Shown piece after piece: positions 15,799 to 31,422 of a stretch of 56,700 nt of DNA; position 1 is the first letter of the stretch; each line of letters begins with the position of its first letter. This DNA is from a phage. The translations under genes and the position numbers were made by a program. Below the pieces are notes generated by a model that ran no database searches, was not told the DNA's origin, and was given only the letters and a program-made list of their open reading frames with translations. Where the stretch lies: sequence record PZ544694.1; one strand, given 5' to 3'.

Positions 15799-16488
15799 AT
15801 GATCGTATTAACTGGTTGTACTCAAAACACGTTTGACATGAAGATCCACACTAAAGCGGGCGCCGTTTTCCATACAAATATTAGCTTTGAAGATTTCCGC
15901 ACTAAAGCCAGTGGGGCTTCGTACCACTTGCATAAAATGGGTCATGAACTGGGCGACGTTGAGTCTCTTGGCATGGTTCCGGAAGATAGGTTTAACCGTG
16001 TGCGCTTTTGGGCGCATGGCATGGAAAAGCTGATCGTAGCGCATAATACCGGCTTTCACTCGTTCGACTTTCTCCACGTTGATTTATTGCCGATAAATAC
16101 ACTACTAGGTGAGGTCAAAACGCCGTTAATCATTCCGTCGTTGATTGGTGGCGTGAATCTCGGCACATGGAAAAACGATTGTTATTTAATTACCTCACCC
16201 TTGGCGAAAGATAACGGTAAATCGGTTCTAGTATGTCAAGGGGAGAAAGTTCTAGAGGACGAGGAACTAACGCAATCAGAGCTAGACGCGGGGGAGAACT
16301 TGAACACACTCACCGTATTAACTGACCTGCAAACACTCCGCCAGCCTTACCTAGTCAGCGATGGCGATTTATTTTGCGACCAGTTCGATTCTAGCGTGGG
16401 GATTGTGTTAAACGTTGTCGCGGACACCTACGGGGATATTGTCATTAACCCACACGGAATAGCAAATACTCAATTTATGGATCGCTAG
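15799..16488 (+). CDS. hypothetical protein
   Basis: 229 aa frame-1 ORF; AGGAG upstream; ATGA stop/start duplicated at junction. Confidence 0.5.
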   Translation: MIVLTGCTQNTFDMKIHTKAGAVFHTNISFEDFRTKASGASYHLHKMGHELGDVESLGMVPEDRFNRVRFWAHGMEKLIVAHNTGFHSFDFLHVDLLPINTLLGEVKTPLIIPSLIGGVNLGTWKNDCYLITSPLAKDNGKSVLVCQGEKVLEDEELTQSELDAGENLNTLTVLTDLQTLRQPYLVSDGDLFCDQFDSSVGIVLNVVADTYGDIVINPHGIANTQFMDR

Positions 16489-17289
16489 ATGAAAAAGATT
16501 ACTATCGGTGCTTCAGAACGTGCGGAATTACGTCAAATTTGTAACGTTATCAAAGCTAATCCTACGCACTATGAAACGGTTACTTACACGAATAAAGACG
16601 CGACCGCATCTATCAAAGTTAAATATTCCGCCGGCGAAAAACTAACGTATAAAGCCTTTATCACCGTTATCGTGGGCGAGAAAGTGGCAACCGAAACCGT
16701 AGAAGCCGGAAGTTTTAATATCGTCGAGAACAAGATCCGTGCGTGTGGTTCTGTTGACTACTTGACCGAGTTATCAAATAAAACCGTATCCCTAGATAAA
16801 CCGCTTCACGTATCATTGCGTAAATCAATGCAACCAAGCGCACAGCAACGTAGAGGAATCAAGGAGATGACGCGTAAAGCGGAGAAAGCCGACCCATTGG
16901 ATTTAGTGCTTATGGATAGCCTCTTGATCGTTCGCAAGTCGTTTGGTGTCGTATATCGTGGCCAAGTTCTAAACTTCAAAAGTGCTATAAACAATCAAGG
17001 GGCGATCAAGATTATCGTGTCTATAAATACGATGTTTAATAACGACTTACAATATGTGTGGTCAATGATATACACCCTCGACCGTTTGGCCTACGATATA
17101 CGCAATGGGAACCTCGCCATTCTATCGCATAGTGCGCCGACGAAAGTTTTACGGGTGTACGGTTGGCGCGGTGACTATGAGACTATCGCAGTAAACCAGA
17201 AAGCCCGACTGTCATCAGTGATCGAGAATTTCATGATTGAGGGTGGTTCTCGTCGCATTGAGTTTCGCCCGTTACCTCAAAGAAACTAA
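16489..17289 (+). CDS. hypothetical protein
   Basis: 266 aa frame-1 ORF, no recognised domain. Confidence 0.5.
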   Translation: MKKITIGASERAELRQICNVIKANPTHYETVTYTNKDATASIKVKYSAGEKLTYKAFITVIVGEKVATETVEAGSFNIVENKIRACGSVDYLTELSNKTVSLDKPLHVSLRKSMQPSAQQRRGIKEMTRKAEKADPLDLVLMDSLLIVRKSFGVVYRGQVLNFKSAINNQGAIKIIVSINTMFNNDLQYVWSMIYTLDRLAYDIRNGNLAILSHSAPTKVLRVYGWRGDYETIAVNQKARLSSVIENFMIEGGSRRIEFRPLPQRN

Positions 17290-17511
17290 ATGAAGCCGGT
17301 AAATAATCCAACCTTGGATAAGACGATCGAGATTTACCAAGAGCGAGGCGAAAATATTTATTACGTTGTTGCGGGCGGTGTATGGATCGGGACGATTGCC
17401 AAGACACCACACCACCTCAAGCCGTGGACTTTCTGCGGGCAAGGTGTGAGCCTTGGCGGGGATTCCTTGGAAATGGTTAAAAAATCCGTGGTTACGATGC
17501 TCACACGGTAA
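17290..17511 (+). CDS. hypothetical protein
   Basis: 73 aa frame-1 ORF. Confidence 0.35.
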   Translation: MKPVNNPTLDKTIEIYQERGENIYYVVAGGVWIGTIAKTPHHLKPWTFCGQGVSLGGDSLEMVKKSVVTMLTR

Positions 17512-18153
17512 ATGAGACGCGTTGATCCTAAAGACTGTTTAGACATAATCCTAAACTACCATTATGCGAAACGTCGACCTAGCATATCTTACGCTTTCGG
17601 GTTCTTCGAAGACGAGGAGCTTGTCGGGGTTCTAACTATCGGTAAGCCGGCCAGCAACCCGCTATGTGTTGGAATATTGGGCGAGGAGTACAAAAGCCAC
17701 GTTTTTGAGTTAAACCGACTTTGTTTTATTCGTCCAATCCGTAACGCTCCGTCGCAGTTGATCGCCTTCGCTATGGCTGAGTTGAAAAGTGAAAACCTTG
17801 TCATCGTGTCGTATGCGGATCGCGGTATGAACCACAACGGATATATTTATCAAGCGTCTAATTTCATCTACACGGGGGCGACGAAAGCGCGCACCGATAA
17901 ATACACGGAGCAAGGTAAACACTCTCGGCATTATCAAGGAAAGGAAAGCAAGACGTATCGACAAGTCAGAACATCTAAGCATCGTTACGTTTATTTTACG
18001 GGGAGCCGTTCGGTCGTGAAGAAGTATAAAAAGTTGCTTCGATATCCGGTATTGCCTTATCCCAAGGAAGAAAATAAAAATTATGTGCTCGGATCCGAGT
18101 ACAAGCAAGAACTCGTTAAGATTAAAGGGGGAGAAAATGAAGCCGGTAAATAA
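17512..18153 (+). CDS. putative Mom-like DNA modification protein
   Basis: 213 aa; HYAKRRP, LVGVLTIGKPASNP, VIVSYADRGMNHNGYIYQASNFIYTG, KHRYVYF, PVLPYPKE recalled as characteristic of Mom-family proteins; recalled from memory, not searched. Confidence 0.4.
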   Translation: MRRVDPKDCLDIILNYHYAKRRPSISYAFGFFEDEELVGVLTIGKPASNPLCVGILGEEYKSHVFELNRLCFIRPIRNAPSQLIAFAMAELKSENLVIVSYADRGMNHNGYIYQASNFIYTGATKARTDKYTEQGKHSRHYQGKESKTYRQVRTSKHRYVYFTGSRSVVKKYKKLLRYPVLPYPKEENKNYVLGSEYKQELVKIKGGENEAGK

Positions 18154-18894
18154 ATGACTTTCATTTCTAACGTTGTAACCGATAACAGCCCTTTTGATAT
18201 GCCCGAAAGTGTTCGTAATTATATTTTGACAGTTAACCCTCGCGCCAAGGTGGGCGATGTTAAAACATTATCGGGGGCGATAGCATTAATTGCGGATTTC
18301 GATAAATTCATTCCACTAGCACGTTACCTATTTGAGAGCGTCGAGGTGAGCGTGTTCGATCATGGTGCGAGCTGTCATATGGCCAATGATGCGGACTTAT
18401 CCGCACGAACTATCGCCGTAATGAAAGCGCTGGGGTTCTCTTTAGACCTTGATAAATCTCACGGAGCGACAACATTTGCGAAAACAATCGACGGGAAAGA
18501 ATTAAAAGCCATATTTTTTAGCCGTGGCGAAGAAGCCGAAGGTTGGGACATAACTTTCACGATCGGCGGGTGTGTGACGCTTAAACGTAACGCGGTTAGC
18601 GATTTAGACGCCTTGATCTTGGCGTCACTCCCTGAAAGTTTCGACACAATGCGCCCACTGTTAGACGGCCTGTCAAGCCTTGGTTTCGAAGTGAACAACG
18701 AAGCATCAGTTGACGGGCTTACAGTGTTCTACTGCGAAGACGACGGGCGAGAAATCCACGTGAAAGATGGCGACGTGTTCGGGCATTTTTTCGCGGTCTA
18801 CTTCGTTGATGGTAAAGACGTTGCGATACGCGCGAATCGTCCGGCCGAAATTATTGTTCGTGACGCCTCAGAATCGTGGACGTGGGAGGGTTAA
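18154..18894 (+). CDS. hypothetical protein
   Basis: 246 aa frame-1 ORF. Confidence 0.5.
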   Translation: MTFISNVVTDNSPFDMPESVRNYILTVNPRAKVGDVKTLSGAIALIADFDKFIPLARYLFESVEVSVFDHGASCHMANDADLSARTIAVMKALGFSLDLDKSHGATTFAKTIDGKELKAIFFSRGEEAEGWDITFTIGGCVTLKRNAVSDLDALILASLPESFDTMRPLLDGLSSLGFEVNNEASVDGLTVFYCEDDGREIHVKDGDVFGHFFAVYFVDGKDVAIRANRPAEIIVRDASESWTWEG

Positions 18895-18970
18895 TTGTTT
18901 TCATGTTTTCAAATCAAGGCTATATTAACGGATATTTTTCAACTTGTAAACAATAAATTTCTCAGCGGAA

Positions 18971-18998
18971 AAGAAAAAAGCCCGCATATACGGGCTTA
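18971..18998 (-). terminator. intrinsic terminator-like hairpin (T-tract on complementary strand)
   Basis: GAAAAAAGCCCG-CATATA-CGGGCTT; 6-bp GC-rich stem, 6-nt loop; reverse complement gives hairpin followed by TTTTTTC. Confidence 0.45.
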
Positions 18999-19179
18999 AA
19001 TGGTGATCAGGGAAAAGAAAAACTGGTATTATTGTTCATGCGGTAAGCCGTTTAGATCTGAGGCTCGCAGTAGTAACGGGCTAGTTTTGTTTCGATTAAA
19101 GTGCGTATCCTGTGGGATATATTCACCGTGGCGCGGTTCAATTGGGCTATGTGTAGCGACGCTTGACAGCACCACGTAA

Positions 19180-19545
19180 ATGGGTAACTCAGTAAATTGT
19201 TTCAAATTTTATGAGGTTTGTAATGAGTTTCTAAATCTACCGGTAGTGGCTATCGGGAGGCCTAGCAACGATTTATCATTACCGGAATTTAATTACTCTT
19301 ATGGCGTGGTGTTCCATGTTAACAACAAGTTGCTTAGAGTCCTAACCGTCCGATATTCTTATGGACACCGGAGGGCATACGTTAGGATCGACGACGTAAG
19401 AACGGATTACCCTAATGTCACTTATCCGGTTTACGAGCCGGTTCTTTTCTCGGGGGAGATCGCCGGCGAATGGATACGAGGCGCAAAAAATTTATACCGG
19501 AGTTATAGGGACACGCTAACGAACGTAAGGGGGTCTGTATGGTGA
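19180..19545 (+). CDS. hypothetical protein
   Basis: 121 aa frame-1 ORF. Confidence 0.45.
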   Translation: MGNSVNCFKFYEVCNEFLNLPVVAIGRPSNDLSLPEFNYSYGVVFHVNNKLLRVLTVRYSYGHRRAYVRIDDVRTDYPNVTYPVYEPVLFSGEIAGEWIRGAKNLYRSYRDTLTNVRGSVW

Positions 19546-20115
19546 ATGGCAGAATTAGCATACACTAAAGCGTCTATCTTCCAATCTATCGTTGATGATG
19601 TTAGTACGGGTCTACCTAAAGGAACTTCATTAGATACCCGCGGAGATTTCGAAAATCAATTACGCGACCTTTTCGAAGAAAATAATCTTATGAATGCGCC
19701 GGAATGTATCAGCGTCGACTACTTCGGGGAAGCATGGGAGATCGTCCAGTCTAGCGAGTTTGATTCTGTTGAGCTAGAAACGCCTTTAGATTTCAGCGGG
19801 TGCAAAAGTTCATTAAAATGTTTGATGATGGAAGCTAACGCATTAATAAGCGCGTCTTGGCGTGAACAAGTGGAAGCCTACATCGAAGAACTGGCCGAAG
19901 CACTGGAAGAAGTTGTCGAGGGTTGCGAGGAGTTCGGAACAATCGACGAACTGGTAATCACTGGCGGGTGCCGTTTCGGTCACATTCCACACCTAAGAGA
20001 GTTCGATGCTGGCGACTTTTCTGTGTGCATGTGGGCGCCGAACGAAGCCGGAGAGTCTGAAATTTATTATAATTTCCGAGGTCTGGAACTGCGCGGGGTT
20101 GTATATCATGGGTAA
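19546..20115 (+). CDS. hypothetical acidic protein
   Basis: 189 aa frame-1 ORF, Glu/Asp-rich. Confidence 0.45.
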   Translation: MAELAYTKASIFQSIVDDVSTGLPKGTSLDTRGDFENQLRDLFEENNLMNAPECISVDYFGEAWEIVQSSEFDSVELETPLDFSGCKSSLKCLMMEANALISASWREQVEAYIEELAEALEEVVEGCEEFGTIDELVITGGCRFGHIPHLREFDAGDFSVCMWAPNEAGESEIYYNFRGLELRGVVYHG

Positions 20116-20928: not shown

Positions 20929-21255
20929 ATGAGCAAACAAATTCCTTTCGATCTTTTCCGTTCTGCGCATCGTCTGACTGTCACAGGGATCGAGGCGAAC
21001 TATGAGCAATATGTCGTTCTCTCCCATAAAGCCGACGCGGATTATCTGGAAAAGTTCATCGATAACTTATTGAATGATTTCCCTTTCCCTGTTGCGATAT
21101 CAGAAGAAAGAGTGAGTAGCCCGTCTTCTGTAATTATCCGGTCGGGCTTGATGGTGTCCGAGATTAAAAAGGATATAAAAAGCGGTAAGGTGGCTAATAT
21201 GTATTTATCGGAGCCGGTTCGAACTCGCAACGATAATATTATTATTCACCCGTAA
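20929..21255 (+). CDS. hypothetical protein
   Basis: 108 aa frame-1 ORF. Confidence 0.4.
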   Translation: MSKQIPFDLFRSAHRLTVTGIEANYEQYVVLSHKADADYLEKFIDNLLNDFPFPVAISEERVSSPSSVIIRSGLMVSEIKKDIKSGKVANMYLSEPVRTRNDNIIIHP

Positions 21256-26844: not shown

Positions 26845-27585
26845 ATGATGATCAATCCCTACGCGGTGGAATTACAGAAATTGAAAGACGCCAAGAAACA
26901 CATTCCAAAGCAGATAAAAGACCAATGGCGTACTCCGGACTGGCTTTTCTACGCGCTAAACTCTTTATACGGCCCGTTCTTGGTAGATTTGTTTTCAGAT
27001 GGACAGAATGCTAAGTGCTCCCGGTATTTCATGGCCGAGGATAATGCGCTACAACAGAACTGGAAAGAAGCACTAGAAGACGCCAAGTTTGAATTCCTTA
27101 TCGATGCAGACTGTGCGGGGTACGATGCTACTGACGATCTAAAGACGGCCAAGTGTTTTGCTAACCCGCCATACAGCCCGGCTAAGTATATCGGTAAAGG
27201 GCGTAAGAATAGAATACCGCTCTGTGGTATGCGAAATATCATGGCTAAGGCCTACGAGGAACACAAGGCCGGTTGCCCTTCATTCTGGTTGCTTAAATCC
27301 GCCACGTCAGAAGATTGGTGGCCTAACGAGACCGCAAGCCAGATAATCCACATCAAGGGTAGAATTGCTTTCGAGAAACCGGTGTGGTTTAGAGATGAGG
27401 TCGTAGACCGCGTGGAAAGTAGTGCTGCTTTCGGTGCGTCCGTTGCTATTTTTAACGGAATAAACGATATTCAAGAACCGGAAGCCTACATCAGTCGAGA
27501 TACCTTAAAATTAATAGGGGAGCCACTTGCTGAAATTAATGCGGAAAGACGCGCCGAGTGGATAGCTAGTTTCGACGATCTATAA
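26845..27585 (+). CDS. dam: DNA N6-adenine methyltransferase (phage Dam family)
   Basis: 246 aa; WRTPDWLF...FLVDLFSDGQNAKC and catalytic NPPYS motif. Confidence 0.8.
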   Translation: MMINPYAVELQKLKDAKKHIPKQIKDQWRTPDWLFYALNSLYGPFLVDLFSDGQNAKCSRYFMAEDNALQQNWKEALEDAKFEFLIDADCAGYDATDDLKTAKCFANPPYSPAKYIGKGRKNRIPLCGMRNIMAKAYEEHKAGCPSFWLLKSATSEDWWPNETASQIIHIKGRIAFEKPVWFRDEVVDRVESSAAFGASVAIFNGINDIQEPEAYISRDTLKLIGEPLAEINAERRAEWIASFDDL

Positions 27586-27816: not shown

Positions 27817-28350
27817 ATGGATCATAAGTACAAGGTTTCGGACAGGAATACCGTCGCCCGAGTAGTGGGCCGTCATCGCCAATGGTGCGACGCATACGTT
27901 GAGGTAAAACGTATCGTTCGTGAAATGTCCGAAAAAGGGATAACCGATCTGGAAGTTGACGCGATGCCGATCCACGCGCACCTAAACCGGATTGCTGGTT
28001 TCAACTCATTTTTTGCCAACACTCAAAACGAATGGTGGCTAAGATTTAGACCATTTGAAGCCTACCCACAAGATAACGGGAAGACGCTAATTAAGTACCG
28101 CGACTCCCACCCGTGTAACATCTGGCGAAAAGTAGAAAAGATGGAATTCGACCGAGAAGATTTAGAACGAAGAATAAGTCGTATCGAACAAATATTACAA
28201 GGACAGCCGGAAACAATCGCATACGATAGAAAAGTATTTCGAATTCGTAGAACACAAGAATTATCTCAAACCGGCATGTCAAACCGAAAAGCGAGAAAAA
28301 TCGCATGGGAGGAAGCCGGTAGAGAATTCCCGGGAGAAGACCATGTTTGA
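27817..28350 (+). CDS. hypothetical protein
   Basis: 177 aa frame-1 ORF. Confidence 0.45.
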   Translation: MDHKYKVSDRNTVARVVGRHRQWCDAYVEVKRIVREMSEKGITDLEVDAMPIHAHLNRIAGFNSFFANTQNEWWLRFRPFEAYPQDNGKTLIKYRDSHPCNIWRKVEKMEFDREDLERRISRIEQILQGQPETIAYDRKVFRIRRTQELSQTGMSNRKARKIAWEEAGREFPGEDHV

Positions 28351-28602
28351 ATGTTTGATGAAATACGGAGAATAAAACGGAAATATGAAATGTTGCCTCC
28401 CGGAGATAACATACCTCTGTATGGCGATTTCATTGAGTTTAAGGACGAATTTAACGGAGCAACATATATTGGGGAGGTGTTAGATCACCATTTCAGTTCA
28501 ACACCTCACGATCAAATTTGGAATGTCTTCGTAGACGGCGTGACCATATCTGCGAAACAATCTGAGATAACAAGAGTATACCGACGCAAACGGAGAAAAT
28601 AG
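28351..28602 (+). CDS. hypothetical protein
   Basis: 83 aa; first 8 nt duplicate last 8 nt of upstream ORF. Confidence 0.35.
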   Translation: MFDEIRRIKRKYEMLPPGDNIPLYGDFIEFKDEFNGATYIGEVLDHHFSSTPHDQIWNVFVDGVTISAKQSEITRVYRRKRRK

Positions 28603-29466
28603 ATGAAAGACCTAACAAAACCTTTAGTAGAAATCGATATCGACGTTAGAACGGATTACCTACCTCACGGTGTTTTATCCGTTGATATCAAAACCGAGGA
28701 AATATCTCACGAACTAAAATCGTTACTAGCCGATACATTTGAAGCCATGGTAGTTCGTTTGATTTCTTCGGAGAGAAAATACCAAAGAGGGAACTCTTAC
28801 CAGAACGAAGAACTAGCGCAAAGCGGTGAACTCGCATTCCGGATCGCCGACCGGCTTAAAAATTTCCAAGATATTGACGCCATGAATTTGATTATGTTTT
28901 CCATGTACCATCAGGCGTATTCTGGACAACAAATTCATCTAATGGATAGTTGTATTAAAGATTTCCATCGCGGGGTGGTAGACGCGTATAACTTCATTGA
29001 TTCTACTTGCCCTCCCGGTTGTGCTGAGGAAGCGTTCCGAACACTGCTTATGAGCGAGTTAGTCGACACTACCATGAAAGAACTCGGCAAAGGCGATAAA
29101 ACCTCATACAAGATGTTAGGTGGCGATACGGCCAAGTTATCCGTTAACCCCCCTAAGTCCCTAAAAGCATTTGCGGATCAACTAGGCGACGAGGAGCTTT
29201 ACATCTATAACATTCTAGGCATGAATTTTGTGATCCCATGGTGGGGCGATACCGTAGTAGCGAATAAGGAAAAACAACTACTCGTGTTCCCGGGTGTACC
29301 ATATGTTGATCGAGAGACCGATAGATGGCGTTCACCAGACTGTGAAGATTTCCAAAAAGACGGTCTCGTTATCGGCACAATAGATGTCTCGAAAGAAAGA
29401 GAATATCTCATTGATGGTTTTATTCTATCTCTGTCCGCATTCAACCGCAAACCGCTAGAGGGCTAA
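28603..29466 (+). CDS. hypothetical protein
   Basis: 287 aa frame-1 ORF. Confidence 0.5.
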   Translation: MKDLTKPLVEIDIDVRTDYLPHGVLSVDIKTEEISHELKSLLADTFEAMVVRLISSERKYQRGNSYQNEELAQSGELAFRIADRLKNFQDIDAMNLIMFSMYHQAYSGQQIHLMDSCIKDFHRGVVDAYNFIDSTCPPGCAEEAFRTLLMSELVDTTMKELGKGDKTSYKMLGGDTAKLSVNPPKSLKAFADQLGDEELYIYNILGMNFVIPWWGDTVVANKEKQLLVFPGVPYVDRETDRWRSPDCEDFQKDGLVIGTIDVSKEREYLIDGFILSLSAFNRKPLEG

Positions 29467-29931
29467 ATGAAATTAGTATACATAGCTGGCCCATACCGCG
29501 CAGACACCAAAGAGGGCGTGGCTGAAAATATCCGTAAGGCACAAGTAATCGGGCTATCTCTAACCACCAACGGACATACATTAGGGGTATTCCCCGTGAT
29601 CCCTCACATGAATACGGCGCACTTTGAGACCCACACTTTAACCGTATCACAAAAATTCAGCGCTTTTATTGAGCCGGTGCCAGATGAATACTGGCTACAA
29701 GGAACAATGGCATTGATGGAAAAATGCGATGCGGTTTTATTGACGCACCCACAAGCCGGCATAACAAGCAAGGGAACGCGGGCGGAGGTTATGCGCGCTA
29801 TTGAGTTGGGTATTCCTGTTTATGACCACATAAACGGTCTACTATCTGACCTTAGAGACGAATCAACGCCTCTACGAAGTATTAATGTTTTGAATGACAA
29901 GCGAGAATTTCTCGGGGCGGTTGATGAGTGA
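29467..29931 (+). CDS. DUF1937/DUF4406-like protein (nucleoside 2-deoxyribosyltransferase-like fold)
   Basis: 154 aa; N-terminal LVYIAGPYRAD and mid-protein CDAVLL...G pattern. Confidence 0.35.
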   Translation: MKLVYIAGPYRADTKEGVAENIRKAQVIGLSLTTNGHTLGVFPVIPHMNTAHFETHTLTVSQKFSAFIEPVPDEYWLQGTMALMEKCDAVLLTHPQAGITSKGTRAEVMRAIELGIPVYDHINGLLSDLRDESTPLRSINVLNDKREFLGAVDE

Positions 29932-30402: not shown

Positions 30403-31107
30403 ATGGCGAATTTAAAGCCTAAAGGTATCAGACAAAATAACCCGGGTAACTTGGAGTGGGGATCTCCTTGGCAGGGGCTAGTACCGAAAGCGGAGAGAAC
30501 GTCTCCTCGCTTTTGTGAATTCGTAAATCCGGTTTATGGTATTCGTGCGATCGCAGTAACGTTAATCACGTATTACGATAAGCGCAAATCAAAGAACGGC
30601 TCTCGCATCGACTCCGCGCGTGAAATCGTTGAGCGTTGGGCGCCGGGGTCGGAGAAAGGGAATAATACCAACGTATACGCTAAAAACTTAGCAGACCTAC
30701 TAGGCGTTGGCCCGGACGACGAAGTTATCGATATGCACGACTACGACCAGTTGTTTTTATTGGTGTCAGGCATCATCGGTACAGAAAACGGCTTCAATGG
30801 GCCACTCAAAGGCAAAACGGTAAACACTTGGTATTCTGACGAGACTATCGAAGAAGCCCTCCGTATGGCCGGGGTGACTAAGAAACCGAAAGTCGTTAAT
30901 TCTACTGCAACCGTAGCAGCCGGCACCGCAGCACTAGGCGTCGCTCAGTTGGTTGAGGTCGTCCAGCCGGTCAAGGAGGCGGTACACAATGCCTCGGGAG
31001 ACCTTTCATCTGGCGACTACGCTAGAATCTTCCTCGGCGTCGCCACCGTCGGGATCGGGATTTACCTCGGCTATGTCCGCTACCGTAAATTCAAATTGGG
31101 GCAGTGA
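30403..31107 (+). CDS. hypothetical protein, possible peptidoglycan hydrolase (endolysin candidate) with C-terminal hydrophobic segments
   Basis: 234 aa; N-terminal GIRQNNPGNLEWG; two C-terminal hydrophobic stretches; sits among small membrane proteins. Confidence 0.25.
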   Translation: MANLKPKGIRQNNPGNLEWGSPWQGLVPKAERTSPRFCEFVNPVYGIRAIAVTLITYYDKRKSKNGSRIDSAREIVERWAPGSEKGNNTNVYAKNLADLLGVGPDDEVIDMHDYDQLFLLVSGIIGTENGFNGPLKGKTVNTWYSDETIEEALRMAGVTKKPKVVNSTATVAAGTAALGVAQLVEVVQPVKEAVHNASGDLSSGDYARIFLGVATVGIGIYLGYVRYRKFKLGQ

Positions 31108-31422
31108 ATGGCGGGTAGAGATGGAGGTACGGGAGGCGTTCGCATTGACTTGGCGATCAATATCCCGACTATCCTTTCGCTAATAGCAGCGTTGTGTAGC
31201 GGTATAATGTGGGTTAATAACCAGTTTAGCAATGTTAGAAACGATGTTTTGTTGGTCACGGCTGACGTTAGAGTCCTAGAACAACGAACAACGCAAGCCG
31301 AGCGGGAAATCGCCGATATAAAACATAATACCGCACAACAAATAAACCAGTTTCGAGGTGAAGTTCGCGAAGACCTTAGAGACATTAAAACTAGCGTTCA
31401 AAAACTCGCAGATAAAAAATAG
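31108..31422 (+). CDS. membrane protein with N-terminal TM and coiled coil (i-spanin-like candidate)
   Basis: 104 aa; TM INIPTILSLIAALCSGIMWV then heptad-like charged helix. Confidence 0.3.
   Translation: MAGRDGGTGGVRIDLAINIPTILSLIAALCSGIMWVNNQFSNVRNDVLLVTADVRVLEQRTTQAEREIADIKHNTAQQINQFRGEVREDLRDIKTSVQKLADKK

What the first reader, a model, noticed from the sequence alone, without database searches (positions are those of the whole stretch)
17512..18153. Mom-like DNA hypermodification candidate alongside a Dam methyltransferase
ORF 17512-18153 carries motifs (VIVSYADRGMNHNGYIYQASNFIYTG, KHRYVYF, PVLPYPKE) that I recall as typical of the Mom family, whose phage Mu member makes N6-methylcarbamoyl-adenine. 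The window also encodes a Dam-family N6-adenine methyltransferase (26845-27585, NPPYS) and a DUF1937 nucleoside-deoxyribosyltransferase-like protein (29467-29931). Together these suggest layered DNA modification as anti-restriction. GATC looks frequent by eye; I did not count it.
Basis: partly seen in the sequence, partly recalled or inferred. Interest (0 to 1): 0.65.

Follow-up and report, generated by a model that had tools for sequence, protein, structure and literature searches.

The report
Mom-family DNA adenine modifier, already annotated
The ORF is a genuine, selectively maintained member of the phage Mom family of DNA adenine-modifying enzymes, but public records for this phage (Escherichia phage E21) already label it so, and it is an independent gene cassette, not part of a coordinated system with the Dam methyltransferase.

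Summary
The ORF at 17512-18153 is real, and its Mom assignment holds. It matches Pfam Mom (PF25680) at E=5e-35. A profile comparison with the Mu Mom clade gives 99.6% probability. An AlphaFold model's best PDB match is the Mu Mom crystal structure 8BV8. dN/dS against relatives is 0.03-0.05. The window is Escherichia phage E21 (Lavrentievavirus), where RefSeq already calls this gene "Mom-like DNA modification protein". The most likely function follows Mu Mom (Silva et al. 2026): transfer of glycine from host Gly-tRNA(Gly) to N6 of adenine in double-stranded DNA, then rearrangement to N6-carbamoylmethyl-adenine, as anti-restriction. gp18 belongs to the large non-Mu part of the family. It keeps H58/Y59/R111/S124/D149/Y159 but lacks Mu's essential R151, its N-terminal sheet and its two-helix insertion, and it has a conserved extra C-terminal tail. 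The product and target motif are therefore inferred, not shown. The "layered" idea is only weakly supported. Dam is real but ancestral to the whole phage family, lies 9.4 kb away on the opposite strand, and occurs without Mom elsewhere. The NDT-like gene also occurs in two related phages where Mom was not found. GATC is not enriched. Caveat: the window is a gene-by-gene, sense-flipped concatenate with intergenic DNA removed.

The parts
17512..18153 (+). Mom-family GNAT DNA-modification gene (E21 gp18, JT325_gp18; native record coordinates 18104-18745, minus strand). The real start is probably 9 nt further upstream (GTG, giving 216 aa), in DNA missing from the window.
   Evidence: Pfam PF25680 E=5.2e-35. 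PHROG 1384 at 1.4e-68. hhalign against the Mu clade: 99.6% probability, E=1.4e-23. AF2 model pLDDT 87.8, with top PDB hit 8BV8 at E=2.8e-10 and TM 0.66-0.69. dN/dS 0.03-0.05. 100% identical to the E21 gene that RefSeq annotates as 'Mom-like DNA modification protein'. Start codon evidence.
18154..18894 (+). gp19, 246 aa, unknown function. Natively it is the gene immediately UPSTREAM of mom and the first gene of the mom transcription unit (record 18758-19498, minus strand). In the window it appears downstream because of the gene-wise flipping.
   Evidence: Native order. Only match is PHROG 38602 (unknown function), with no Pfam hit. Confined to Lavrentievavirus plus Kokobel1, where it occurs without Mom.
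17290..17511 (+). gp17, 73 aa, unknown function. Natively it lies immediately DOWNSTREAM of mom, and its ATG lies 19 nt inside the 3' end of mom behind its own GGGGGAG Shine-Dalgarno (record 17899-18122, minus strand). It is the last gene before the terminator.
   Evidence: Native sequence read. PHROG 37849 (unknown function), no Pfam hit. Homologs occur in Kokobel1 and Saba without an adjacent Mom.
26845..27585 (+). Dam-family N6-adenine DNA methyltransferase (E21 gp35; record 28177-28914, plus strand). It is an independent module and not part of the mom unit. Listed because the finding names it.
   Evidence: PF05869 at 9.1e-30; TIGR01712 at 117.1 bits against a cutoff of 97.05; PHROG 111 at 1.2e-61; FANPPYSP motif. 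Orthologs occur across Casjensviridae, including Chi. RefSeq mislabels it 'phosphoadenosine phosphosulfate reductase'.
29467..29931 (+). NDT-superfamily protein (DUF7768; E21 gp39, record 30861-31325, plus strand). Not linked to mom. Listed because the finding names it.
   Evidence: DUF7768 at 28.1 bits (cutoff 26). DUF1937 at 17.7 and Nuc_deoxyrib_tr at 16.0 are both below their cutoffs. PHROG 355 at 1.4e-20. Homologs are present in Kokobel1 and Saba. No solved-structure relative by sequence.

Best explanation
gp18 is a functional Mom-family GNAT enzyme that modifies the phage's own double-stranded DNA after replication. By analogy with Mu Mom, it most likely takes the activated glycyl group from host Gly-tRNA(Gly) (E21 encodes no tRNA), flips out a target adenine and acylates its N6. 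The N6-glycyl-adenine then rearranges on the base to N6-carbamoylmethyl-adenine, which blocks many restriction endonucleases. Unlike Mu mom (late, dependent on C, Com and Dam/OxyR), this gene sits in a compact three-gene unit (gp19, mom, gp17). That unit is driven by a conserved near-consensus sigma-70-type promoter and ends at a strong intrinsic terminator, so the host RNA polymerase probably transcribes it without phage activators. It behaves as a single-gene accessory cassette added to the Lavrentievavirus lineage. Shown here: family membership, fold, conserved catalytic residues, purifying selection and the operon anatomy. Inferred: the tRNA donor, glycine as the group transferred, adenine N6 as the target, the sequence motif and the anti-restriction benefit.
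For: Family and fold. Pfam Mom matches at E=5.2e-35, far above cutoff. The only significant PDB match by sequence is Mu Mom 8bv8 (E=3.8e-7). Profile comparisons give 98.1% and 99.6% probability and extend to the C-terminal PYPK. The AF2 model (pLDDT 87.8) has 8bv8 as its top Foldseek hit (E=2.8e-10, TM 0.66-0.69), with generic GNATs at E of about 1e-4 and TMq 0.29-0.49. The control Mu-type model matches 8bv8 at TM 0.87/0.93.

Residues. All six residues whose mutation compromised Mu Mom in Karambelkar et al., and which Silva et al. place in the active site, are present: H17/Y18, R69, S81, D103 and Y113. They are invariant in 120 of 120 E21-type proteins. Also family-wide invariant are E108, G156, N163, H183, R216 and Y217.

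Functionality. dN/dS is 0.03-0.05 at dS 0.33-0.36 against four relatives.

Mechanism of the prototype. Silva et al. 2026, PMC13219725.

Single-enzyme logic. Distant homologs have no conserved neighbours. gp19 and gp17 occur without Mom. E21 has no tRNA genes.

Operon. A promoter TTGACA-17-TATATT lies at record 19581-19553. It is repeated three times in the early arm against 0 expected by chance, and its hexamers are invariant in 5 genomes. The terminator hairpin folds at -20.9 kcal/mol, z = -6.2. The junctions were read directly.
Against: No biochemical or nucleoside data exist for this phage or for any E21-type Mom. gp18 is only 23-26% identical to Mu Mom. R151 is essential in Mu (R151A is inactive) and is Arg in 120 of 120 Mu-type proteins, but it is Gly in gp18 and never Arg in 120 E21-type proteins. 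W48 (Mu dimerisation) and W181 have no counterpart. The Mu N-terminal ~40 residues are absent, including the basic 11-19 segment suggested to help bind tRNA. Deleting Mu's HTH-like insertion abolishes activity; in the gp18 model that position holds a shorter, mostly coil, basic loop of lower confidence. The clade also carries a conserved 27-residue C-terminal tail that Mu lacks. Donor, product and motif could therefore differ. DNA of the relative RP6 is cut by EcoRI and HindIII (PMC10194311), but neither site places an adenine in Mu's S-A-S context, so this does not bear on the question.
Confidence: 0.7

Rival explanations
1. gp18 is a Mom-family DNA modifier with different chemistry or specificity from Mu Mom. 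It might use a different aminoacyl-tRNA or another acyl donor, or target a different sequence context, so the adduct in virion DNA would not be 6-NcmdA at S-A-S sites.
For: There are clade-specific active-site differences. Mu's essential R151 is replaced (G 76, Q 28, A 11, E 3 of 120), while a His at Mu position 154 is invariant in 120 of 120 E21-type proteins and in all 8 non-Mu intermediate phage homologs. The N-terminal sheet and the two-helix insertion, proposed in Mu to contact tRNA and the DNA major groove, are absent or remodelled. The clade has a conserved extra tail, E-N-x-N-Y-x-L-G. Silva et al. state that co-substrate and substrate could not be predicted from structure alone.
Against: The residues lining the acyl-transfer site (H58, Y59, R111, S124, D149, Y159) are all invariant. 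The paper reports metagenomic homologs as active in its in vivo assay. Glycine is the smallest acyl group, and the rearrangement that restores base pairing is specific to a glycyl adduct.
Confidence: 0.2
2. gp18 is an ordinary acetyl-CoA-dependent GNAT acetyltransferase acting on a protein, small molecule or tRNA, not on DNA. Many actinophage records label their homologs simply 'acetyltransferase'.
For: The fold is GNAT, and generic acetyltransferases appear among the structural matches. Several phage records annotate homologs as 'acetyltransferase'. Karambelkar et al. measured acetyl-CoA binding by Mu Mom.
Against: The best sequence, profile and structure matches are all specifically to Mom, by large margins. 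Mom-specific residues that are not general GNAT features are invariant: R111, the H-Y pair, H183 and R216-Y217. The insertion is strongly basic and conserved, which fits nucleic-acid binding. One distant locus places the gene between two DNA methyltransferase genes.
Confidence: 0.05
3. Mom, Dam and the NDT-like protein form one coordinated, layered DNA-modification system. For example, Dam methylation might regulate or complement momylation as a functional unit.
For: All three genes lie in the early, non-structural part of one genome. In Mu, host Dam methylation regulates mom transcription (established knowledge). One unrelated contig places a Mom gene between two N6/N4 methyltransferase genes.
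Against: The genes sit in different, divergently transcribed units 9.4 kb apart. Dam is conserved across Casjensviridae, while the close Mom orthologs were found only in Lavrentievavirus. The NDT-like gene occurs in Kokobel1 and Saba, where the corresponding slot holds no Mom. The mom promoter is a plain sigma-70-type consensus, and no com-like gene was found among its neighbours. GATC is not enriched. No other modification genes were found in the arm.
Confidence: 0.08
4. The ORF is a decaying or non-functional remnant.
For: None beyond the absence of direct functional data.
Against: dN/dS is 0.03-0.05 with 37-40 synonymous against 6-9 non-synonymous differences. The reading frame is intact in 27 records at 95-100% protein identity. 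All catalytic residues are retained. The promoter, Shine-Dalgarno and terminator are conserved.
Confidence: 0.01

Closest known systems
Bacteriophage Mu Mom (Mup55; PDB 8BV8), a tRNA(Gly)-dependent DNA adenine N6-aminoacyltransferase that makes N6-carbamoylmethyl-dA
   Same: Same Pfam family (PF25680). Same GNAT core with an insertion between beta6 and beta7. Homology runs the full length to the C-terminal PYPK. H58, Y59, E108, R111, S124, D149, Y159, H183, R216 and Y217 are conserved. It is a single-gene module with no dedicated partner enzymes.
   Different: Only 23-26% identical. gp18 lacks Mu residues 1-41 (a three-stranded N-terminal sheet and a basic segment). R151 is Gly, and an invariant His occupies Mu position 154. 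W48 and W181 have no counterpart. The insertion is about 12 residues shorter and is predicted to be a basic loop, not two helices. gp18 has an extra conserved tail of about 27 residues after PYPK. Regulation is entirely different: a sigma-70-type promoter in a virulent chi-like siphophage, against Mu's late expression controlled by C, Com and Dam/OxyR. No activity data exist for gp18.
E21-type Mom-like proteins of Listeria Pecentumvirus (for example LP-083-2 gp004), Staphylococcus Baoshanvirus phiSA_BS2, Bacillus phage Riggi and Acinetobacter phage JeffCo
   Same: Same clade, at 43-56% identity over the full length. They share the G-H-x-G motif, and the Listeria and Staphylococcus members examined share the short insertion with K-H-S-R-H-Y and the conserved C-terminal tail.
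   Different: Different hosts (mostly Firmicutes) and unrelated genome contexts. As far as the literature searched shows, none has been characterised biochemically either.
tRNA-using GNATs FemX (PDB 4II9) and TacT (PDB 7F36)
   Same: GNAT fold. They use or act on aminoacyl-tRNA, and served as structural analogies for tRNA and DNA binding by Mom.
   Different: No specific sequence or structural affinity to gp18 beyond the GNAT fold. Neither appears among the 50 listed Foldseek hits. Their acceptors are peptidoglycan precursors or the tRNA-bound amino acid, not DNA.
Phage T1/VT2-type Dam methyltransferases (PF05869, TIGR01712), for the accompanying gp35
   Same: Profile scores above curated cutoffs, the NPPY catalytic motif, and the typical size.
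   Different: Specificity was not tested here. RefSeq mislabels it 'PAPS reductase'. There is no sign of functional coupling to mom.

Membership tests
Mom family (Pfam PF25680) | Profile match above the curated gathering threshold over the whole domain | tested here: met
   121.4 bits against a cutoff of 27.1, E=5.2e-35, profile positions 5-202 of 202. PHROG 1384 at 1.4e-68. hhalign against the Mu clade gives 99.6% probability.
Mom family (Pfam PF25680) | GNAT fold whose closest solved structure is Mu Mom (8BV8) | tested here: met
   AF2 model pLDDT 87.8, pTM 0.82. Foldseek top hits are 8bv8_B and 8bv8_A at E=2.8e-10 and 5.3e-09, TM 0.64-0.69; the next hits are generic GNATs at E of about 1e-4. 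Control Mu-type model against 8bv8: TM 0.87/0.93.
Mom family (Pfam PF25680) | Functionally required active-site residues H58, Y59, R111, S124, D149 and Y159 (Mu numbering) | tested here: met
   gp18 has H17, Y18, R69, S81, D103 and Y113. Each is invariant in 120 of 120 E21-type proteins and conserved family-wide.
Mom family (Pfam PF25680) | R151 (essential in Mu; R151A shows no detectable activity) | tested here: not met
   It aligns to G105. The column is R in 120 of 120 Mu-type proteins and in 0 of 120 E21-type proteins. All 8 non-Mu intermediate homologs also lack it and instead carry His at Mu position 154. R151 is thus a feature of the Mu clade, not of the whole family.
Mom family (Pfam PF25680) | Insertion between beta6 and beta7 (HTH-like in Mu, residues ~175-209; its deletion abolishes activity) | tested here: inconclusive
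   An insertion is present at the same position and carries the family-invariant H183, R216 and Y217 equivalents (H137, R158, Y159). It is 35 residues against Mu's 47. In the model it is a basic loop with one helical turn (residues 131-148, pLDDT 62-76), where the Mu-type model has two helices.
Mom family (Pfam PF25680) | N-terminal extension (deleting 20 residues reduces Mu activity) and the dimer-interface residue W48 | tested here: not met
   gp18 begins at about Mu residue 42, and W48 aligns to K7. The Mu-type model has a three-stranded N-terminal sheet that gp18 lacks. Oligomeric state could not be tested.
Mom family (Pfam PF25680) | Gly-tRNA(Gly)-dependent glycyl transfer to N6 of dA in dsDNA, giving 6-NcmdA | not testable with these tools
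   Requires nucleoside LC-MS or in vitro reconstitution. No literature on E21-type enzymes was found.
Mu mom operon (regulatory system) | Com translational activator overlapping mom, a C-dependent late promoter, and a Dam/OxyR-controlled upstream region | tested here: not met
   The native upstream gene is gp19 (246 aa, no Pfam hit, PHROG of unknown function). The unit has a sigma-70-type consensus promoter and no com-like ORF. Compare Mu and PhiR68_1, where com overlaps mom.
Phage Dam N6-adenine methyltransferase (PF05869 / TIGR01712), gp35 | Profile above curated cutoffs and the NPPY catalytic motif | tested here: met
   PF05869 at 104 bits (cutoff 28.1); TIGR01712 at 117.1 bits (cutoff 97.05); FANPPYSP present.
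Phage Dam N6-adenine methyltransferase (PF05869 / TIGR01712), gp35 | GATC target specificity | not testable with these tools
   Only site counts could be made. GATC occurs at 0.95-0.98 of zero-order expectation and 0.77 of Markov expectation, which says nothing either way about specificity.
DUF1937 (PF09152) / nucleoside 2-deoxyribosyltransferase (PF05014), gp39 | Profile match above the gathering threshold | tested here: not met
   DUF1937 at 17.7 bits (cutoff 23) and Nuc_deoxyrib_tr at 16.0 bits (cutoff 28.8) both fall short. The related DUF7768 passes at 28.1 bits (cutoff 26), and PHROG 355 matches at 1.4e-20. Its homologs carry overlapping DUF7768, DUF4406, DUF1937 and Nuc_deoxyrib_tr hits, so superfamily placement is reasonable.

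The most novel reading that the evidence does not exclude
The E21-type proteins represent the large and uncharacterised non-Mu part of the Mom family. The exhaustive search found 1788 clusters at 50% identity with E <= 0.001, and the word-indexed searches returned 7410 E21-type against 843 Mu-type proteins. These proteins have a different active-site solution (an invariant His at Mu position 154 in place of the essential Arg151), no N-terminal tRNA-facing segment, a remodelled DNA-facing insertion and a conserved extra C-terminal tail. They may therefore use a different aminoacyl-tRNA or recognise a different DNA motif, and so place a not-yet-described N6-adenine adduct or pattern in the DNA of Lavrentievavirus, Listeria Pecentumvirus and Staphylococcus Twort-like phages.
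Probability: 0.22. Interest if true: 0.55.

Novelty: already known. Interest (0 to 1): 0.22.

Why it matters
As it stands this is a correct recognition of an already annotated gene. NC_052983 and at least a dozen related records call it 'Mom-like DNA modification protein', Pfam and PHROGs both hold the family, and the prototype's mechanism was solved in 2023-2026. Its practical relevance is modest. Lavrentievaviruses are being developed against Proteus mirabilis, and hypermodified adenines would affect host range across restriction systems, restriction mapping and long-read base-calling of these phages. The more useful point from this analysis is that Mu Mom is an atypical representative of its own family. 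Most homologs, including this one, lack R151, the N-terminal extension and the two-helix insertion that feature in the Mu mechanistic model. Testing one E21-type enzyme would show whether tRNA-dependent glycylation of DNA is general to the family.

Tried and rejected
1. I looked for a conserved partner gene. The native neighbours gp19, gp17, gp16, gp15, gp13, gp20 and three unannotated ORFs have no Pfam hits and match only PHROGs of unknown function. Three distant E21-type loci share no neighbours. gp19 and gp17 occur in Kokobel1 and Saba without Mom. The partner idea was rejected.

2. I looked for further modification genes in the divergent early arm. Only RdgC and proteins of unknown function turned up.

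3. I looked for phage-encoded tRNA(Gly). There are no tRNA genes in E21.

4. I tried to identify the paper's active 'Homolog A/B' to see whether either is E21-type. The supplement is not held, and the main text gives only IMG taxon ids.

5. I looked for experimental evidence on Lavrentievavirus DNA. The only finding was EcoRI/HindIII RFLP of RP6, which is uninformative for S-A-S adenines.

6. I initially read R151->Gly as a peculiarity of gp18. The family-wide alignments showed that the Mu clade is the outlier.

7. Sequence searches of the PDB with Dam and with gp39 gave nothing significant.

8. GATC enrichment was tested and rejected.

9. Promoter and terminator analysis inside the window is impossible, because both elements are absent from it. 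It was done on the E21 record instead.
Full report
**Observation.** Window 17512-18153 (+) is an ATG-to-stop ORF of 213 aa. It matches Pfam Mom (PF25680) at E=5.2e-35, 121.4 bits against a gathering cutoff of 27.1, across profile positions 5-202 of 202. It also matches PHROG 1384 'Mom-like DNA modification protein' at 1.4e-68. The second protein named (26845-27585) is a Dam-type N6-adenine methyltransferase: PF05869 at 9.1e-30, TIGR01712 at 117.1 bits against a cutoff of 97.05, with FANPPYSP present. The third (29467-29931) falls below Pfam's cutoffs for DUF1937 and Nuc_deoxyrib_tr. It passes only the related DUF7768, and matches PHROG 355 at 1.4e-20. 'GATC looks frequent' is wrong: there are 212 sites in the window against 216 (zero-order) or 274 (Markov) expected, and 215 against 226 or 280 in the native genome.

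**What the window is.** The window is Escherichia phage E21 (MN604053 / NC_052983; Casjensviridae, Lavrentievavirus; 58,536 bp) at about 100% identity. It is not native sequence. A block-by-block BLAST shows that every gene has been turned to its sense strand and the genes concatenated in record order, with 1,836 nt of intergenic DNA removed. In the real genome mom is JT325_gp18 at 18104-18745 on the minus strand. Its true upstream neighbour is gp19 (downstream in the window) and its true downstream neighbour is gp17 (upstream in the window). RefSeq already annotates gp18 as 'Mom-like DNA modification protein', as do many records of related Proteus phages.

**Relationship to Mu Mom.** Recent work established the prototype's mechanism (Silva et al., Nat Commun 2026, PMC13219725; preprint 2023). 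Mom is a GNAT that transfers glycine from Gly-tRNA(Gly) to N6 of adenine in dsDNA at S-A-S sites, about 20% of dA. The glycyl adduct then rearranges on the base to N6-carbamoylmethyl-dA. The important residues are W48, H58, Y59, R111, S124, D149, R151, Y159 and W181, together with an essential HTH-like insertion at ~175-209. Truncating 20 N-terminal residues reduces activity. gp18's only significant match by sequence in the PDB is this protein, 8BV8, at E=3.8e-7. A 40-sequence profile of gp18 relatives aligns to Mu Mom with 98.1% probability, and to a 32-sequence Mu-clade profile with 99.6% (E=1.4e-23). Both alignments run from gp18 residue 1 to the shared C-terminal PYPK. An AlphaFold2 model (pLDDT 87.8, pTM 0.82) has 8BV8 as its best Foldseek hit (E=2.8e-10, TM 0.66-0.69), five orders of magnitude ahead of generic GNAT acetyltransferases. 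As a control, a Mu-type model built the same way matches 8BV8 at TM 0.87/0.93.

**Residue-level test.** I aligned 252 sequences: 120 E21-type, 120 Mu-type, 10 intermediate phage homologs, Mu Mom and gp18. The following are conserved across the family and present in gp18 as H17, Y18, E66, R69, S81, D103, G110, Y113, N117, H137, R158 and Y159: H58, Y59, E108, R111, S124 (S/T), D149, G156, Y159, N163, H183, R216 and Y217. This set includes all six residues whose mutation compromised Mu Mom in Karambelkar et al.. Three Mu features are not shared. R151 is Arg in 120 of 120 Mu-type proteins but in none of 120 E21-type proteins (G 76, Q 28, A 11, E 3; gp18 has G105). W48 aligns to K7. W181 falls in a Mu-specific stretch of the insertion. 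In their place, a His at Mu position 154 (gp18 H108) is invariant in all 120 E21-type proteins and in all 8 non-Mu intermediates, from the archaeal virus HGTV-1 to actinophages. For this residue the Mu clade is the outlier and gp18 is typical of the family's majority.

**Architecture.** The two clades differ in median lengths.

| Region | E21-type | Mu-type |
|---|---|---|
| Residues before the H-Y pair | 20 | 48 |
| Insertion G168..R216 | 35 | 47 |
| Residues after PYPK | 27 | 5 |

In the models, Mu-type has an N-terminal three-stranded sheet and two helices in the insertion. gp18 has neither. Its insertion is an 18-residue basic loop with one helical turn and lower confidence.

**Is the gene functional?** Against four Lavrentievavirus relatives the gene shows 37-40 synonymous and 6-9 non-synonymous differences, giving dN/dS of 0.03-0.05 at dS 0.33-0.36. 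Twenty-seven phage records carry it at 95-100% protein identity.

**Native anatomy, read from the E21 record.**
- **Promoter.** A near-consensus sigma-70-type promoter (TTGACA-17-TATATT, 11 of 12 matches) lies at 19581-19553 on the minus strand.
- **Genes.** It is followed by gp19, a 12-nt spacer, mom, and gp17. The gp17 ATG lies 19 nt inside the end of mom, behind its own GGGGGAG Shine-Dalgarno.
- **Terminator.** The unit ends at a 12-bp hairpin with a T-run at 17881-17852, folding at -20.9 kcal/mol, z = -6.2.
- **Promoter copies.** The 29-nt promoter element occurs three times in this arm against 0 expected by chance, and its hexamers are invariant in five genomes.
- **Start codon.** An in-frame GTG lies 9 nt upstream of the annotated ATG and 7 nt after a GGGAGGG Shine-Dalgarno. 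It is probably the real start. Three relatives have ATG there and annotate a 651-nt gene, and the database representative is the 216-aa form.
- **Contrast with Mu.** There is no com-like gene, and nothing resembles Mu's control by C, Com and Dam/OxyR.

**Is it part of a larger system?** gp19 and gp17 have no recognisable domains and are confined to Lavrentievavirus and a few relatives. In Kokobel1 the slot between them holds an unrelated 284-aa gene. In Saba a gp17-like gene has no Mom beside it. Three distant E21-type loci share no neighbours, although one has Mom between two N6/N4 methyltransferase genes. Dam lies 9.4 kb away on the opposite strand, in the divergent arm, and has orthologs throughout Casjensviridae, including Chi. 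The NDT-like gene is also found in Kokobel1 and Saba. The rest of that arm holds no other modification genes. E21 encodes no tRNA. Mom here is therefore a self-contained accessory cassette that depends on host tRNA, in line with the 'single viral enzyme' picture for Mu. The 'layered system' is at most the co-presence of two independent adenine-N6 modifiers.

**Mechanism proposed.**
- **Shown:** Mom-family membership, the GNAT fold, a conserved catalytic core, purifying selection and an autonomous sigma-70-driven operon.
- **Inferred from the prototype:** use of host Gly-tRNA(Gly), acylation of a flipped-out adenine's N6 in dsDNA, rearrangement to N6-carbamoylmethyl-dA, and protection from restriction.
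- **If Mu's S-A-S specificity held:** 5,547 adenines, 17.8% of all A on both strands, would be targets.
- **Open:** the missing R151, the missing N-terminal segment and the remodelled insertion leave donor, product and motif unsettled for this clade. I give 0.7 to the Mom-like mechanism and about 0.2 to a variant chemistry or specificity.

**Novelty and scale.** The gene is already annotated and the family is curated. The exhaustive search finds 1,788 50%-identity clusters at E <= 0.001, 643 at <= 1e-10 and 64 at <= 1e-30. The word-indexed searches returned 7,410 E21-type against 843 Mu-type proteins. No experimental data on any E21-type enzyme, or on Lavrentievavirus DNA modification, were found. 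The EcoRI/HindIII digestion reported for RP6 does not probe S-A-S adenines. Verdict: a correct but ordinary identification, already known. The one point of residual interest is that the well-studied Mu enzyme is atypical of its family.

Noticed in passing
whole window (1-56700): The window is not native genome sequence. It is phage E21 cut gene by gene, each gene flipped to its sense strand and concatenated in record order, with 1,836 nt of intergenic DNA removed. Minus-strand genes therefore appear in reverse transcriptional order, all ORFs abut exactly, and promoters, terminators and some start codons are missing. Any first-stage inference in this window based on adjacency, strand or intergenic signals is unsafe.
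   Followed up: yes
window 26845-27585 (E21 record 28177-28914): RefSeq labels this Dam-type methyltransferase 'phosphoadenosine phosphosulfate reductase'. The same label recurs on its orthologs in many chi-like phages (KFS-SE1, phage 35, BP12C, FSL SP-088, NSP). The label probably comes from PHROG 33262: gp35 matches only positions 285-482 of that 495-position profile, which would fit a fusion family with a methyltransferase part at its C-terminal end.
   Followed up: partly
E21 record (L001) 17791-17819, 19553-19581, 21030-21058, minus strand; absent from the window: A 29-nt near-consensus sigma-70-type promoter element (TTGACACCTGAAAGCGGTAGTATTATATT) is repeated three times in the minus-strand early arm, dividing it into tandem short operons. 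None is expected by chance, and the hexamers are invariant in five related genomes.
   Followed up: partly
public records matching window 16000-20000: Genomes 93-96% identical to this Proteus/Escherichia phage are deposited as 'Staphylococcus phage SVV09-A', 'Enterococcus phage AS-M1_NWU', 'Pseudomonas phage E21' and 'Salmonella phage SD-11 to SD-14'. Such a host spread within one genus is implausible and suggests contamination or mislabelled hosts.
   Followed up: no
window 17512 (E21 record 18745-18754): The annotated ATG start of mom is probably 9 nt too far downstream. An in-frame GTG (ATG in three relatives) lies 7 nt after a GGGAGGG Shine-Dalgarno. Relatives annotate a 651-nt gene, and the database representative P0001 is the 216-aa form beginning MYTMRRV.
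   Followed up: yes
L024 (Providencia phage Kokobel1, 50846-51700) and L025 (Proteus phage Saba): The position that mom occupies between the gp19-like and gp17-like genes is a variable slot. Kokobel1 carries an unrelated 284-aa gene of unknown function there, with no Pfam hit. In Saba the gp17-like gene follows an unrelated 242-aa gene, with no Mom beside it.
   Followed up: partly
proteins P0393, P0413, P0418, P0425 and others; PHROG 3339; Campylobacter phages CP220 and F379: Some Mom-domain proteins are much longer (about 480-720 aa), with the Mom domain at the C-terminus or embedded. Some phage records label these 'homing endonuclease'. This fits the Mom-nuclease fusions described for jumbo phages (PMC7824862).
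   Followed up: no
L007 5014-7801 (metagenomic contig SRR26937437_736): In this 128-kb phage-like contig an E21-type Mom gene sits between two N6_N4_Mtase genes and next to a Gad2-domain gene and an IS605 OrfB/TnpB. This looks like a small DNA-modification and anti-defence island.
   Followed up: no
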